In this document: piece after piece, positions 1 to 64,000 of the stretch
Layout: the number at the start of each line of letters is the position of its first letter
How positions within the stretch are numbered: the stretch's first letter is position 1
From: Perna viridis
Taxonomy: Eukaryota
Assembly: GCA_037379345.1 (NCBI GenBank)
Contig: CM074521.1
Location: 25,816,704 to 25,880,703, forward strand
Reading direction: 5' to 3'
DNA: 64,000 nt
Made by a program: the position numbers

Positions 1-3000
1 GTTAATTTTAATTTTGAAAGGGGACAAACCGTATGGGTATTGTTGAAACGGAAAATTTATACAATTTCACAGATGTCTTTTTTCCCAAATCAGTATCTCC
101 TGAAATATCGGACTACAAAACAACCTAATTGTATTTAATTGTTTCATATGGAAATAAACACACACACATTCAAAAAAGAGAAGTAAAACAATAATTTGAG
201 CAGATGACTTGTAAATTTCGTTTTTATTTTAACTGATACTGTATATAAGCTGAATATGTTTTGTATATTATTTTGAGTTTTTATTTTAAATCGAAAAAGA
301 TCAGATTGCTTTACTCATTTTTCCCTAACAGTTACAACTGCCTCTACAACTGTTCCACCAACTACATCGACTCCACCAGTTTCAACCCCTGAAACATGTG
401 AGGAGGTTGACAACATGGGACCATTATCAGAAAACATTAAAGAGGTGACAAAGAATGGTAATCCATTGACTGAAGATGATAAGAACAAATTACAGCCTGG
501 TGATGATAAGAAGTTAACTGTATCTAAGACTGACACTTTGTCCATTGTTATGGAAACACAAGAAGAAGTTGATAAAATTGAAGTACTGGAAACAACCAAT
601 GTAAAGGAAGTAAACGTTGTCCTGAAGGACGAAGATGGAACAACAGTTCTTGTAAGTAAAATATCAATAAATGTATTAATACTCTCGAAATTAATTATCT
701 TTTTAATTTCATTTTTTTTTTCATTTCTTTATTTCATGCATTATAACCAATCTTCGGTATAACTTAAAATGCACATACATTTATAAGATTAGTTTCTTTG
801 TTTTGTTACAGTGTTGGACTTTTTATTTTTTGCCATCGAAAAAAGATTCACATTTCCAATGGAAAGTGTTTAGATTTTACATGCATCAACTGTCCGAAGC
901 AGGATTGGCGATTTTCAAAATAAACAAGAACTTTCATTCTTAATAATTGAATTTAAAATATTAAATGTTTTTGATTTGTAGGATGAGACCATTTCACCAG
1001 AGGAAATTGTAAATGTTCCAAATAAGGTAGCTGGAAGTATCACTTTCACATTTGTACCAACAGATCCAAATGAAGATATGGAAGTAGGATCCATTTCTGC
1101 TGAAGTTTGTGTTAAACCTGGTAAGTGTTGTGATTAGATTTTAAGATATATTTAGAACATGTCAGATCTTTAATTCTGGTTCTTGTGTGATATAATTGTG
1201 ATGCAAACATGATAATTGAGTAATTTGTATGTGAAATATCCTCTAATGGATAAACATTTGGATCTGTGGTATATTGAGAGAAATGTTTGGGTTAGGACTA
1301 GACATTTCTTATGGGAAATTAGGATCTGGTAATGTTTGTGATTAGATATAGTTTTTTTTCCATATTTTGTTTCTTTTGTATAGCTTATATTTTTTTGTAT
1401 CTTTTTGTCTGAGTTTTTTTTAAATTTTTTTTAAACTTGTTACTAAATTGTTCTAGAAATTTGTTCCAAGAGATGTCTTTTGTTCTCGCTATTTCAATTT
1501 GGTATCATGAGTCGATCTGTCTATCATGTTTTGCGACTTAAAGGCAGAGGGAGATGATTTTGTATACGCAACATCCTCCTCTTACAAAAGAAAATTGGAT
1601 ACTCCGTTTTGCTTACTGTTATAATAATACTGTTAAAAAGTATTGTTAATCATTTGTTTGCTAATTCAGAGTGTATTAATGTATTGTTAACATATGTTTT
1701 CCTTGTCATTTATATAATAGATATGTTGCAAATGGTATTGCAAAATTATTCTATGTTGAAACATTTAAAGATGACGTATTATTTTATTGACATTGTTATT
1801 GGCTCATATGGCTTAGAAATTACCCCTACGTTTTTTGAAAATTTCGCTAAGTTTCAGTTTACTACATTGATATTTTGTCTTGAGAGATTTACGTGTAGGT
1901 AAGTGAGGTGACAGTGGTTTTCCGGAACAATTTGTCTTTCATTAATAAGATATACTTAGAAATTTAAATTAACATCACTATTTCTGCGAAGTTCGTTTGG
2001 TAATGCATCATTTTTTATATATCAGATTTTCATTTGTCTCTCTTCATTTTCAGTTGGTGTTTGCATTTTGAACCCTTTGTCAATACAGCAACTGTATAAA
2101 CTAAATTTTTCGAGCAACTTGGCGGGTGTATCTAGAAAGATGACGTATTATCTTTAAACAATCTTAATTTCGGAGATTTGATACATCGCATCTAACCCCA
2201 AAGAACTTGTAATAAAGGATACTACAGACACTATAAAGTCGGCCTCAAATCCTGGCCTACAATTAGAAATCGGTGGTAATAGGAAAACTATTGACCACAC
2301 TTTACGACAAACATGATGACATTTTATTCAGAATTGTTTACTTTCCTTTCATCTGTGGCAACATCCCTTCTGTACCTGCGTATGGAGTGTTCATATCACA
2401 ACTCATACTTTATGCCAGAGCTTGTCGAAACTACGCAGACTTTTTGTATAGCACTAGAATTCTAACAAATAGGCTTCTGAAACAAGGTTATGTTACAGAG
2501 GTTTTATGGTCGTCATCATGAACTCGTTGATCGTTACGGTGTATCCATCTGCGCAATGAAAACTGATTTCGTCTACCCCTGACTGGACTTTTCATGAGCA
2601 ACTCGACGGGTGTTTCTATAAAAGAAGAGAACGCTTTCCCTACCGGTGCACCTGGTCCATGCTCCCATTTTTTAAGTGGAGTACGAGTTGCACGTTTGCT
2701 TTTGTTACTTTGTATGTATGATTTTAGTTACTTTATGTTCTTTGTTGTGTAAGTCTGTTTACCATCTGTGGTCTTTGTCCCTGGATTACATTCTTTTGAT
2801 TACCGCTAGAATCTTGGTTCCATTGATTACTCGAAACAAACTGTTGAGTCTTAAAGTTATTCTTTTTTTTTCAATGACTATAAAATGCAATATATTAATG
2901 TCTTTGAATTTAGTACTTTTATAATTGACCCCAAACAAAAAATATATTTCTTGCACATTTTTCTGTACTGGAAAATTTTAATCTCGCTATGGTATTGATG

Positions 3001-63000: not shown

Positions 63001-64000
63001 GACCTACAACAGCAGGTACTGGACCAAGTCCAACAGGAACTGGACTTACAACAGCAGGCACTGGACCAACAACTGCAGGCACTGGTCGAACTACAACAGC
63101 AGCTACTGGACCAACAACTGCAGGCACTGGTCCGACTACAACAGCAGGTACTGGTCCAACACCAACTGGAACTGGAGCAACTACAGCAGTAACTGGTACC
63201 ACTCCAACTGGCACTAGACCAACAACTGCAGCCACTGGTCCAACAACTGCAAGCACTGGACCTACAACTGCAGCCACTGGTCCAACTGGAACTGGACCTA
63301 CAACAACAGCTGTAACTGGCACAGGACCTACAACAGCAGGTACTGGACCAACACCAACTGTAACTGGAGCTACAGCAACAGGAACTGGAGCAACTACAGC
63401 GGTCAGTGGTACCACTCCAACTGGCACTGGACCGACAACTGCAGGCACTGGTCCAACTACAACAGCAGGTACTGGTCCAACACCAACTGGAACTGGAGCT
63501 ACAACAACAGGAACTGGAGCAACTACAGCAGTAACTGGTACCACGCCAACTGGCACTGGATCAACAACAGCAGCCACTGGTCCAACAACTGCACTAACTG
63601 GTGCAACAACTTCAGCCTTTGGACCTACAACTGTAGGCACTGGTCCAACTTCTACAGGAACTGGACCTACAACAGCAGGTACTGGACCAACAACTGCAGG
63701 CACTGGTCCGACTACAACAGCAGGTACTGGTCCAACTACAACAGCAGGTACTGGTCCAACACCAACTAGAACTGGAACAACTACAGCAGTAACTGGTACC
63801 ACTACAAGTGGCACTGAACAAACAACACCAGGAACAGGTCCTACAACTGTAGGCACTGGTCCAACTACATCAGCAGGTACTGGTCCAACACCAACTGAAA
63901 CTGGACCTGCAACAACAGGAACTGGAGCAACTACAGCAGTAACTGGTACCACTCCAACTGGCACTGGACCAACAACAGCTGGTACTGGACCAACAACTGC

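What the first reader, a model, noticed from the sequence alone, without database searches (positions are those of the whole stretch)
332..64000. Tandem locus of two giant paralogous mucin/adhesive-type glycoprotein genes
Seen: gene A ends in TSP1/TIL/VWC/CTCK. Gene B follows about 8.5 kb later on the same strand and alternates globular two-Cys domains with thousands of Thr-rich residues. Both share a paralogous domain (CEEVDxM...DEDG...CxKP). Established: CTCK mediates disulfide dimerisation in VWF and gel-forming mucins; huge repeat-rich TSP1/TIL/discoidin proteins occur in invertebrate adhesives such as flatworm Mlig-ap2 and sea-star Sfp1. Inference: this may be a lineage-specific polymeric mucus, adhesive or matrix gene cluster with a beads-on-a-glycosylated-string architecture. 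Unlike standard gel-forming mucins, no VWD exons are visible ahead of gene B's discoidin domain.
Basis: partly seen in the sequence, partly recalled or inferred. Interest (0 to 1): 0.75.

Follow-up and report, generated by a model that had tools for sequence, protein, structure and literature searches.

The report
Mucin-like gene pair with new module
An AT-rich invertebrate genome window holds a huge threonine-rich mucin-type gene beside a thrombospondin/cystine-knot gene, and both carry a small two-cysteine module that matches no described protein family; this is a familiar kind of gene with one apparently undescribed part.

Summary
On the + strand, sixteen in-phase exons (332-15758) encode a PTS leader, a two-Cys module, TSP1, TIL and VWC-like units, and a cystine-knot-like exon that ends in a stop. 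After 9.4 kb with no recognisable domain, sixteen further in-phase exons (25198 to the window end) encode a discoidin domain, three two-Cys modules and about 5,300 codons of Thr/Gly/Pro/Ala repeats, about 5,970 codons in all.

The two-Cys module is always split into two exons with the same phases. Copy A and copy B1 are clear paralogues (BLASTP E=4e-13). B2 and B3 resemble them only weakly in sequence. The module matches no Pfam family and no solved structure. Among 1.84 billion representative proteins it matched only 11 unnamed short ORF fragments, and no annotated eukaryotic protein.

The PTS region is built of tandem "intron + head + repeats + tail" cassettes.

Still open: whether A and B are one gene or two, where gene B starts, the off-window ends of both genes, the module's fold, expression, and the organism (one weak bivalve hint).

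By rule, exons were never joined, so the whole module was never searched or folded in one piece.

Verdict: a new variant of mucin-type glycoprotein, of moderate interest.

The parts
332..651 (+). Gene A exon: Thr/Pro-rich leader plus the N-terminal part of two-Cys module copy A (first Cys at 397)
   Evidence: Acceptor at 332 and donor at 651, phases 1->0. 40% identical to B1, E=4e-13. Unnamed fragments P0004 and P0006 are 60-62% identical and lose similarity at the exon end. No Pfam family.
982..1120 (+). Gene A exon: C-terminal part of module copy A, ending in the second Cys (C-x-K-P)
   Evidence: Motif scan; AG/GT sites with phases 0->1; alignment A2; no Pfam family.
5885..6049 (+). Gene A exon: TSP1 repeat
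   Evidence: TSP_1 41.5 bits, cut-off 21.6; splice sites with phases 1->1.
7102..7272 (+). Gene A exon: TSP1-like repeat (weak)
   Evidence: TSP_1 17.3 bits, below the cut-off; phases 1->1.
7692..8764 (+). Gene A: TIL domain in two exons (7692-7941 and 8718-8764)
   Evidence: TIL 24.4 bits against a 24.5 cut-off; phases 1->2 and 2->1.
9548..11388 (+). Gene A: TSP1 split over exons 9548-9623 and 10703-10861, followed by a Cys-rich VWC-like stretch that runs on into exon 11339-11388
   Evidence: TSP_1 27.5 bits on the first piece. No Pfam match for the second piece. Phases 1->2, 2->2 and 2->1.
11857..12024 (+). Gene A exon: TSP1 repeat
   Evidence: TSP_1 43.2 bits; phases 1->1.
12295..12453 (+). 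Gene A exon: TSP1 repeat
   Evidence: TSP_1 28.3 bits; phases 1->1.
12890..13051 (+). Gene A exon: Cys-rich unit with no family match (TSP1-like by eye only)
   Evidence: Translation; no Pfam family even at E<=5; phases 1->1.
13318..13520 (+). Gene A exon: TIL domain
   Evidence: TIL 26.4 bits, cut-off 24.5; phases 1->0.
14270..14856 (+). Gene A: VWC-like domain in exons 14270-14377 and 14796-14856
   Evidence: VWC 19.8-20.8 bits, below the 27.6 cut-off; phases 0->0 and 0->1.
15403..15758 (+). Gene A last visible exon: cystine-knot-like domain (11 Cys) and stop codon
   Evidence: Cys_knot 18.6 bits, below the 24 cut-off. Norrin is the best solved relative, E=0.18. Stop at 15756-15758, with AATAAA about 135 and 215 nt downstream. 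The AF2 single-sequence model had pLDDT 43 and was not usable.
15759..25197 (.). 9.4-kb stretch between the cystine-knot exon and the discoidin exon: intergenic, or a very long intron
   Evidence: No extracellular-domain family in any + ORF of 33 aa or more; the 8 weak hits among 150 ORFs were all unrelated families below their cut-offs. No convincing signal-peptide exon. The stretch holds a retroelement-like ORF fragment and long-range inverted repeats.
25198..27333 (+). Gene B: discoidin (F5/8 type C) domain in exons 25198-25484 and 27192-27333
   Evidence: F5_F8_type_C 26.2 bits, cut-off 28.2, profile positions 10-88 of 127 on the first exon. Neuropilin-1 b-domains E about 1e-3, and the CASPR2 Disc domain E=0.11. 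The second exon is inferred from position, length and phase only, with no Pfam hit of its own. Phases 1->0 and 0->1.
29011..29785 (+). Gene B: Thr-rich leader plus two-Cys module B1 in exons 29011-29363 and 29650-29785
   Evidence: Fragment P0002 is near-identical and P0010 is a more distant relative. Phases 1->0 and 0->1.
31710..46537 (+). Gene B: six phase 1->1 PTS exons (31710-31838, 32107-32883, 33181-42189, 42485-44347, 44644-45696, 45989-46537). The four middle exons each have a conserved head, a variable array of 21/66-nt repeats and a conserved tail. They are separated by five introns of 268-297 nt that are about 91% alike. The donor at 46537 is uncertain.
   Evidence: Alignment of the junctions; TRF; motif positions and composition, T 34-40% in the cassettes; per-exon translations without stops and with shared heads and tails; all exon lengths divisible by 3, with AG/GT sites.
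46984..47980 (+). Gene B: two-Cys module B2 in exons 46984-47282 and 47848-47980
   Evidence: Fragments P0014 and P0015 are 59% and 54% identical. Only weak profile similarity to the A/B1 group, E=0.0026, probability 11%.
48587..49921 (+). Gene B exon: PTS array of about 55 copies of a 21-nt unit (T 40%, G 24%, V 14%, P 11%)
   Evidence: TRF: 55.2 copies, 85% matches; composition; splice sites with phases 1->1.
56235..60778 (+). Gene B: two-Cys module B3 in exons 56235-56506 and 60628-60778, with a 4.1-kb intron between them
   Evidence: Fragments P0008 and P0013 are 57% and 43% identical. Weak profile similarity to the A/B1 group, E=4e-4, probability 34%.
62584..64000 (+). Gene B exon: further PTS array, open at the window end
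   Evidence: Open frame of 482 residues to base 63998, T 43%; acceptor at 62584; 21-nt and 129-nt repeats.

Best explanation
The window carries two neighbouring same-strand genes for secreted, mucin-type O-glycosylated proteins of an AT-rich invertebrate. The organism is possibly a bivalve mollusc, on weak evidence.

Gene A is seen only from its last 16 exons. It ends with a short Thr/Pro linker, one two-Cys module, an alternating TSP1/TIL/VWC-like series and a cystine-knot-like C-terminus. By analogy with VWF, gel-forming mucins and SCO-spondin, that C-terminus would pair two chains tail to tail by disulfides (inferred).

Gene B is seen from a discoidin domain onwards. It is a string of at least 5,300 Thr/Gly/Pro/Ala-rich codons, expected to be densely O-glycosylated and extended (inferred). 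Three compact modules of about 130 residues interrupt the string. Each module has one Cys at its first position and one near its last position. The two probably form an intramodule clasp, so the modules would be naked, folded 'beads' available for protein or glycan contacts, as CysD domains are in vertebrate mucins (inferred).

The discoidin domain would give a ligand-binding head (inferred).

The PTS region grew by tandem duplication of an 'intron + exon' cassette. Every cassette exon is phase 1-1 and a multiple of 3 in length, so copy number or exon skipping could change protein length without breaking the frame (shown for the frame arithmetic, inferred for use).

Shown: domains, exon phases, paralogy of A and B1, repeat anatomy, and conservation of each module type in other unnamed assemblies. 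Inferred: secretion, glycosylation, dimerisation and function.
For: - Pfam hits exon by exon.
- All 32 modelled exons have AG/GT borders and their phases chain without a break.
- The four modules share one exon plan, phases 1->0 and 0->1.
- A against B1: E=4e-13.
- Each of the four module types has 43-62% identical counterparts among unnamed ORF fragments, and similarity stops at the exon border.
- The 9,009-nt exon and the other PTS exons are free of stops, with T 34-43% in seven of the eight frames.
- The five introns begin GT and end AG on the + strand only.
- Stop codon and AATAAA after the cystine-knot exon.
- No domain in the 9.4-kb gap.
- Precedents read in papers: SCO-spondin-like invertebrate mucins and F5_F8 domains in lophotrochozoan mucin-like proteins (PMC4948705, passages); a limpet pedal-mucus protein with four TSP1 repeats and a C-terminal cystine knot (PMC7333891, passages); a snail mucus 'Spondin1' with Ser/Thr-rich regions (PMC10475054, passages).
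Against: - No transcript, proteome or glycan data of any kind.
- No signal-peptide exon found for gene B. The only candidate (ATG at 19566) has a poor donor.
- Cys_knot, VWC and F5_F8_type_C matches are all below Pfam's curated cut-offs, and the cystine-knot fold could not be confirmed (pLDDT 43).
- Sequence similarity between module types is weak: A/B1 against B2 11% probability, against B3 34%, and B2 against B3 0.5%. Exon b of A and B1 gives no BLASTP alignment.
- The module's fold is unknown. The exon-a-only model had pLDDT 73 with few strands and no Foldseek match at E<=0.001 (9 matches, all E>6).
- The two language-model look-ups disagree: F5/8 type C at 0.91 against cadherin-like at 0.88.
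- AATAAA is frequent by chance in AT-rich DNA.
- The organism is unidentified.
Confidence: 0.65

Rival explanations
1. The window holds one gene, not two. Either the cystine-knot exon is an internal or alternative 3' exon, or a transcript can splice from a donor inside it, across 9.4 kb, to the discoidin exon. In that case the whole window is a single giant mucin-like gene.
For: A GT at 15720 follows the last Cys of the knot and leaves phase 1, which is the phase the discoidin exon's acceptor at 25198 needs. No start or signal-peptide exon for gene B was found in 15.8-25.2 kb. The same module and linker style occur on both sides.
Against: That donor matches the usual consensus poorly compared with the other 30 donors of the models. 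An in-frame stop and AATAAA signals follow the exon. In the families I know of, the cystine knot is C-terminal (established knowledge, not tested here). Short first exons are easily missed by my crude scan.
Confidence: 0.17
2. Gene A is simply the local orthologue of SCO-spondin, or of an already catalogued SCO-spondin-like invertebrate mucin. Gene B is then an unrelated lineage-specific mucin that acquired one shared module by exon shuffling, and there is no functional 'cluster'.
For: The alternating TSP1/TIL units with a cystine-knot end match the C-terminal plan described for SCO-spondin (PMC7333891, passages). Invertebrate mucin-like proteins group with SCO-spondins (PMC4948705, passages). 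The module is a symmetric phase 1-1 two-exon unit, the kind that shuffles easily.
Against: The Thr/Pro linker plus two-Cys module directly ahead of the TSP1 series is not part of the SCO-spondin plan as described in those passages. The cystine-knot exon found no relative among proteins of 206-2000 aa, though larger proteins were not searchable. Gene A's N-terminus (LDL-receptor, VWD, C8) is off-window, so orthology cannot be tested. Supplementary architectures of Lang et al. 2016 could not be read.
Confidence: 0.13
3. Gene B is not a functional gene. The Thr-rich arrays would be a satellite that stays open by composition, a decaying pseudogene, or partly an assembly artefact of collapsed or expanded repeats.
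For: Both strands are open over the 9-kb array: a 3015-aa ORF lies on the minus strand. Near-identical cassettes and introns are hard to assemble. A 1,341-bp intronic tandem is 98.4% identical between copies. An out-of-phase partial duplicate of an exon start lies at 28824-28935.
Against: Canonical splice sites exist only on the + strand, and all cassette exons keep the frame. The cassettes differ from one another (91% mean column identity), so they are distinct copies. The interspersed module exons are intact and conserved in other assemblies at 43-62% identity.
Confidence: 0.05

Closest known systems
Invertebrate SCO-spondin-like mucins and vertebrate SCO-spondin (Lang et al. 2016, PMC4948705; snail 'Spondin1', PMC10475054)
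   Same: Gene A shares repeated TSP1 units interleaved with TIL and a cystine-knot-like C-terminus. Ser/Thr-rich stretches combined with Cys-rich parts are reported for the snail mucus protein.
   Different: A Thr/Pro linker plus the two-Cys module precedes the TSP1 series here. The defining N-terminal VWD-C8-TIL and LDL-receptor parts cannot be seen because they are off-window. No sequence comparison with a named SCO-spondin was possible with the tools and caps.
Limpet pedal-mucus protein P-vulgata_6 (PMC7333891)
   Same: It is described as 1,860 aa with four TSP1 repeats and a C-terminal cystine knot, found in a mollusc adhesive mucus. This is the nearest described counterpart to gene A's tail.
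   Different: No TIL, VWC, PTS or two-Cys module is listed for it in the table I read.
Flatworm adhesive protein Mlig-ap2 (PMC6410801)
   Same: It is a very large secreted glycoprotein with a long central repeat region, TIL domains, multiple C-terminal TSP1 repeats and an associated O-glycan.
   Different: Mlig-ap2 has VWD and LDL-receptor domains at its N-terminus and 46 repeats of 221-255 aa. Here the repeats are units of 7 to 22 residues of Thr/Gly/Pro/Ala, there is a cystine-knot-like end, and no VWD is seen.
Hemolectin/hemocytin and lophotrochozoan F5_F8-containing mucin-like proteins (Lang et al. 2016)
   Same: A discoidin (F5/8 type C) domain is combined with PTS sequence, and F5_F8 is called characteristic of lophotrochozoan mucin-like proteins.
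   Different: Those proteins place F5_F8 between 3+2 VWD-C8-TIL units and insert CysD domains. Gene B shows no VWD, C8 or CysD in the window, and its discoidin is the first recognisable domain.
Vertebrate gel-forming mucins with CysD 'beads' in the PTS region
   Same: The working principle is the same: long O-glycosylated tracts interrupted by small folded, non-glycosylated domains. The central PTS lies in very large exons with variable-number repeats.
   Different: The beads here have 2 Cys and no match to the CysD profile. No VWD assemblies are visible. The PTS is divided into several phase 1-1 cassette exons with near-identical introns instead of one exon.

Membership tests
Gel-forming mucin (as defined in Lang et al. 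2016) | At least three N-terminal VWD-C8-TIL units | tested here: not met
   For gene B within the window, no VWD or C8 match was found in any of the 209 + strand ORFs of 33 aa or more that end before 31,700. For gene A the N-terminus is off-window and could not be tested.
Gel-forming mucin | Long PTS (Pro/Thr/Ser-rich, repeat-bearing) domain | tested here: met
   Gene B has PTS exons totalling about 5,300 codons, with T 34-43% in the cassette and array exons and 21/66-nt tandem repeats. Gene A shows only a leader of about 20 residues in the window.
Gel-forming mucin / VWF-type proteins | C-terminal VWC domains and a cystine knot | tested here: inconclusive
   Gene A scores VWC 19.8-20.8 bits (cut-off 27.6) and Cys_knot 18.6 bits (cut-off 24). 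The best solved relative is norrin, E=0.18. The model was unusable. Gene B's C-terminus is off-window.
SCO-spondin | Many TSP1 repeats interleaved with TIL/SCOR units, ending in CTCK | tested here: met
   Gene A has four TSP_1 exons above the cut-off and one below it, two TIL units and a terminal cystine-knot-like exon. The SCO-spondin plan is taken from passages of PMC7333891.
SCO-spondin | N-terminal VWD-C8-TIL and LDL-receptor class A repeats | not testable with these tools
   The region upstream of base 332 is not in the window. No such domain lies inside the window.
Hemolectin/hemocytin | F5_F8_type_C domains placed between 3+2 VWD-C8-TIL units | tested here: not met
   The discoidin exon is present, but no VWD, C8 or TIL lies in the 9.4 kb before it or in the 39 kb after it.
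F5/8 type C (discoidin) domain | Profile match at or above Pfam's cut-off | tested here: inconclusive
   The first exon scores 26.2 bits against a 28.2 cut-off and covers only profile positions 10-88 of 127. Neuropilin-1 b-domains give E about 1e-3. The joined domain was not scored, by rule.
CysD domain (Pfam Mucin2_WxxW) | Profile match and a multi-cysteine pattern | tested here: not met
   None of the eight module exon translations matched it. No Pfam family reached E<=0.01, and no CysD match appeared among 12 relatives even at E<=10. Each module has only two Cys.
Mlig-ap2-type flatworm adhesive protein | N-terminal VWD, TIL and LDL-receptor domains; 46 central repeats of 221-255 aa; C-terminal TSP1 repeats | tested here: inconclusive
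   Only the C-terminal TSP1 and TIL content is shared. The repeat type differs. No sequence of Mlig-ap2 was compared.

The most novel reading that the evidence does not exclude
The two-Cys unit is a previously undescribed extracellular domain family confined to one invertebrate lineage. It has diversified into at least four old subtypes. It takes the role that CysD domains play in vertebrate mucins, in a mucin that works without any VWD assembly domains. Gene B's length would be tuned by gain, loss or skipping of whole 'intron + PTS exon' cassettes.
Probability: 0.3. Interest if true: 0.6.

Novelty: new variant of a known kind. Interest (0 to 1): 0.45.

Why it matters
Mucins and adhesive glycoproteins of invertebrates are poorly catalogued, because their giant repeat exons are missed by annotation. 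Current mucin searches start from VWD domains (Lang et al. 2016), so a VWD-less discoidin/PTS protein like gene B would escape them.

If the model is right, this locus gives three things:
- a new small extracellular module to add to domain libraries;
- an example of a mucin-type protein whose 'beads' are not CysD;
- a clear case of PTS expansion by duplication of frame-neutral intron-plus-exon cassettes.

It would also offer candidate components for mucus or bioadhesion proteomics in the source animal. It does not overturn anything known about how mucins work.

Tried and rejected
1. Relatives of the cystine-knot exon among proteins of 206-2000 aa: none found. Larger proteins could not be searched.
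2. Relatives of the discoidin exon among proteins of 168-2000 aa: only one unnamed 206-aa ORF, 97% identical and evidently from the same locus.
3. Profile search with the module's exon a over 1.84 billion representatives: 19 hits at E<=0.001.
   - 11 are short unnamed fragments.
   - 8 are long proteins of 555-5975 aa that match only short stretches many times. Two are named bacterial Ig-like or tandem-95 repeat proteins, one is a Clostridia MAG protein, and the other five carry a hypothetical, unnamed or plainly unrelated label. I treat these as shared strand-like composition, not kinship.
4. Solved-structure sequence searches with module profiles A1, A4 and A2: best E values 2.3, 0.53 and 0.2.
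5. Pfam on 12 module relatives at E<=10: only scattered weak hits, such as FlgD_ig in 3 of 12 members with best E=0.037.
6. Is the module a diverged copy of the neighbouring discoidin domain? hhalign gives probability 1.2%. One language-model look-up pointed to F5/8 type C (0.91) and the other to a cadherin-like sandwich (0.88); both are leads only, and they do not agree.
7. AF2 of exon a alone: pLDDT 73, an incomplete sheet. Foldseek against PDB: nothing at E<=0.001.
8. AF2 of the cystine-knot exon without an alignment: pLDDT 43, so no fold search was made.
9. Signal-peptide exon scans in 15.8-25.2 kb: nothing convincing.
10. The minus-strand 3015-aa ORF over the PTS array was rejected as coding, because the introns have GT..AG on the + strand only.
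11. The small Thr-rich ORF at 28816-28944 was rejected as an exon, because its only donor leaves the wrong phase.
12. Rfam and tRNA scans: nothing.
13. Literature searches for this domain combination in bivalves or molluscs returned 0, 2 and 5 papers, none describing it.

Not done:
- Joining of exons, left out by rule.
- A Pfam scan of minus-strand ORFs. Only ORFs of 80 aa or more were read by eye.
- The closed collections metagenome contigs and viral contigs.
- Genome contigs was not used, because it holds only bacteria and archaea.
- Supplementary files of the papers.

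
Full report
WHAT THE WINDOW IS

The 64,000 bases contain no N. They are about 27-35% G+C except where Thr-rich repeats raise the figure to 40-52%.

No tRNA or Rfam family is present. Minus-strand ORFs of 80 aa or more outside the repeat arrays are antisense to + strand exons or look like AT-rich noise. I read these by eye and did not scan them with Pfam.

The only hint to the organism comes from a retroelement-like ORF fragment at 2267-2518. 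It had 17 relatives at E<=0.001. Sixteen carry no informative name (15 have none, one is labelled 'hypothetical protein'), and one is a Pinctada fucata (pearl oyster) entry at 55% identity. Two longer relatives carry a sub-threshold RVT_1 match. I therefore call the source 'an AT-rich invertebrate, possibly a bivalve' and no more.

CHECK OF THE OBSERVATION

I translated every + strand stop-to-stop frame and scanned the candidates with Pfam one exon at a time.

In one search, 10 of 20 translations matched a family at E<=0.01:
- TSP_1: four above its cut-off, one below.
- TIL: one at the cut-off, one just below.
- VWC: below its cut-off.
- Cys_knot: below its cut-off.
- F5_F8_type_C: 26.2 bits against a 28.2 cut-off, on an exon that holds only part of the domain.

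All 209 + strand ORFs of 33 aa or more that end before 31,700 were scanned across. So were the ORFs between the repeat exons out to 62.6 kb: 139 of the 144 listed went into, and the other 5 had been scanned. No VWD, C8, LDL-receptor, EGF or CysD match appeared. The ten extra weak hits (8 of 150, 2 of 139) are unrelated families below their cut-offs.

- The first recognisable exon of gene B lies 9.4 kb after gene A's stop, not 8.5 kb.
- The VWC, cystine-knot and discoidin calls are sub-threshold.
- Gene A cannot be called giant from this window, which holds only about 864 of its codons.

EXON MODELS

I placed splice sites by hand from candidate lists and checked them arithmetically. Sixteen exons were modelled for gene A and sixteen for gene B. 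All have AG acceptors, and all have GT donors except the two terminal ones. Their phases chain without a break.

Every search, alignment and fold used one exon at a time. As a result, the complete two-Cys module and the complete discoidin domain (two exons each) were never scored or folded as wholes.

THE TWO-CYS MODULE

Four copies exist: A (332-651 + 982-1120), B1 (29011-29363 + 29650-29785), B2 (46984-47282 + 47848-47980) and B3 (56235-56506 + 60628-60778).

All four share one gene structure:
- a first exon entered in phase 1, which starts with a Thr-rich leader followed by the first Cys;
- an intron in phase 0;
- a short second exon that ends just after the second Cys and leaves in phase 1.

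Sequence relationships:
- Copy A and copy B1 are clear paralogues in the first exon (40% identity, E=4e-13). Their second exons give no BLASTP alignment.
- B2 and B3 are much more distant. Profile-profile comparison of the A/B1 group with the B2 group gives E=0.0026 (probability 11%), and with the B3 group E=4e-4 (probability 34%). B2 against B3 gives E=0.13.
- That all four are one family therefore rests as much on the shared exon plan, length and Cys positions as on sequence.

Distribution. A profile of the four first exons was run over 1.84 billion representative proteins and gave 19 hits at E<=0.001 (7 at 1e-10 or better, 0 at 1e-30 or better).
- Eleven are short ORF-type fragments of 85-134 aa. 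The two I looked up (P0004, P0019) come from unnamed Logan and ENA contigs; I did not look up the sources of the other nine.
- Three of the eleven are near-identical to window copies A, B1 and B3, judged by eye.
- The others are 43-62% identical to one particular copy each: P0004 and P0006 to A; P0014 and P0015 to B2; P0008 and P0013 to B3. P0010 is closest to B1 by eye. Their similarity ends where the window's exon ends.
- So each subtype is conserved in related organisms, and the subtypes are old.
- The eight long hits match short stretches many times. They include named bacterial Ig-like and 'tandem-95 repeat' proteins, and I regard them as compositional.
- No annotated eukaryotic protein was hit.

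Family and fold:
- No Pfam family and no solved structure matches.
- The language-model look-ups gave beta-sandwich leads that disagree: F5/8 type C at 0.91 and cadherin-like at 0.88.
- Comparison with the neighbouring discoidin exon is negative (probability 1.2%).
- A model of exon a alone is moderate (pLDDT 73) but incomplete, and finds no fold match.
- The module is therefore unclassified, and its fold is open.

THE PTS REGION

Eight Thr-rich frames hold 70, 273, 3017, 635, 365, 254, 465 and 482 residues. T is 34-43% in six of them, 26% in the 254-residue frame and 20% in the 70-residue frame. Spliced as modelled, they give about 5,300 codons.

TRF finds units of 21, 45 and 66 nt through 33.4-45.3 kb, 55 copies of a 21-nt unit at 48748-49907, and 21/129-nt units from 62790 to the window end.

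An unusual point is the cassette structure. Five introns of 268-297 nt are about 91% alike. The exons between them start with the same head of about 45 residues and end with the same tail of about 60 residues, around repeat arrays of very different length (exons of 777, 9009, 1863 and 1053 nt). A leading mini-exon consists of the tail only, and a last exon has the head but a different end. Every cassette exon is a multiple of three and phase 1-1.

The minus-strand ORF of 3015 aa over the big array is a by-product of the repeats, because the introns are canonical only on the + strand.

ONE GENE OR TWO

For two genes:
- An in-frame stop lies 12 codons after the only possible donor.
- AATAAA signals lie downstream.
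- The 9.4-kb gap is free of domains.
- The cystine knot is usually C-terminal (established knowledge).

For one gene:
- I found no start or signal-peptide exon for gene B. The single candidate, at 19566, has a poor donor.
- A weak donor after the knot's last Cys has the phase that the discoidin exon needs.

I put two genes at roughly four to one. Only transcripts can settle it.

MECHANISM

Shown: the domain content, the exon plan, the repeat anatomy, the paralogy of A and B1, and the conservation of each module subtype.

Inferred from what is established for VWF, gel-forming mucins and SCO-spondin: tail-to-tail disulfide dimerisation of gene A's product through the cystine knot.

Inferred from composition:
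- dense O-glycosylation and an extended form for the Thr-rich tracts;
- the two Cys of each module pairing with each other to clasp its ends, so that folded, sugar-free beads sit between glycosylated strings;
- ligand binding by the discoidin head.

Nothing here tests whether the proteins polymerise, because gene A's N-terminus and gene B's C-terminus are outside the window.

COMPARISON WITH WHAT IS KNOWN (passages read in four papers; Sfp1 from passages of two)

- Lang et al. 2016 (PMC4948705) define gel-forming mucins by VWD-C8-TIL units, PTS, VWC and a cystine knot. They find invertebrate mucin-like proteins closest to SCO-spondin. They call F5_F8 characteristic of lophotrochozoan mucin-like proteins, with CysD inserted nearby. 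Gene B lacks the VWD units and CysD, so I do not file it as a gel-forming mucin or a hemolectin.
- The limpet study (PMC7333891) lists a pedal-mucus protein with four TSP1 repeats and a C-terminal cystine knot. This is the nearest described counterpart of gene A's tail.
- Mlig-ap2 (PMC6410801) has VWD, TIL and LDL-receptor domains, 46 long repeats and C-terminal TSP1 repeats. It resembles this locus only in a general way.
- A snail 'Spondin1' with Ser/Thr-rich regions is reported from mucus (PMC10475054).
- I could not verify a discoidin domain in Sfp1. The word does not occur in the text of the two papers I searched for it.
- Three literature searches for this domain combination returned 2, 0 and 5 papers, none describing it. 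Supplementary files, which hold the invertebrate architectures and the limpet sequences, were closed, so an already catalogued equivalent cannot be excluded.

VERDICT

This is a real, well-structured locus of mucin-type genes. The kind is known. The variant is new in three respects:
- an unclassified, lineage-restricted two-Cys module;
- a VWD-less discoidin-first layout, as far as the window shows;
- cassette-wise PTS expansion.

Interest is moderate.

Noticed in passing
window 51556-54734: A tandem array of about 2.4 copies of a 1,341-bp unit lies inside the long intron between the 48.6-49.9 kb PTS exon and module B3. Copies are 98.4% identical, and a 300-nt stretch is 100% identical in three copies. 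This is either a very recent duplication or an assembly effect.
   Followed up: partly
window 2267-2518 and 18893-19117 (+): Two short ORF fragments of a dispersed element. The first has 17 relatives, 16 without an informative name and one within a Pinctada fucata entry (55% identity). Two longer relatives carry a sub-threshold RVT_1 match, so this is probably a retroelement remnant. The second fragment is likened to the first by eye only; no call compared the two, and it had no Pfam family.
   Followed up: partly
window 2587-2757 and 6409-6578: A dispersed repeat of about 170 nt, 88-89% identical, sits in two different introns of gene A. It is SINE- or MITE-like.
   Followed up: no
window 28824-28935: A partial duplicate (74% identical) of the acceptor and Thr-rich leader of module B1's first exon (29003-29114). 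Its only donor leaves the wrong phase, so it looks like a pseudo-exon left by a local duplication.
   Followed up: yes
window 27583-27679 / 28356-28452; 17558-17654 / 20868-20964; 17762-17845 / 20686-20769: Three inverted-repeat pairs of 84-97 nt, 79-88% complementary. One pair lies in a gene B intron. Two nested pairs span about 3 kb of the gap between the genes, which may mark a DNA-transposon-like insertion.
   Followed up: no
window 33176-42223 (-): A 3015-aa ORF on the minus strand, antisense to the giant PTS exon. It stays open because of the repeat composition. It has no canonical splice sites on that strand.
   Followed up: yes
window 55530-55774 and 57463-57582: Two intronic minisatellites: a 33-nt unit in 7.4 copies and a 38-nt unit in 3.2 copies.
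   Followed up: no
window 19566-19621 (+): An ATG-started ORF with a signal-peptide-like hydrophobic stretch and a poor phase-1 GT. It is the only candidate first exon for gene B that I saw, and it is unconvincing.
   Followed up: partly
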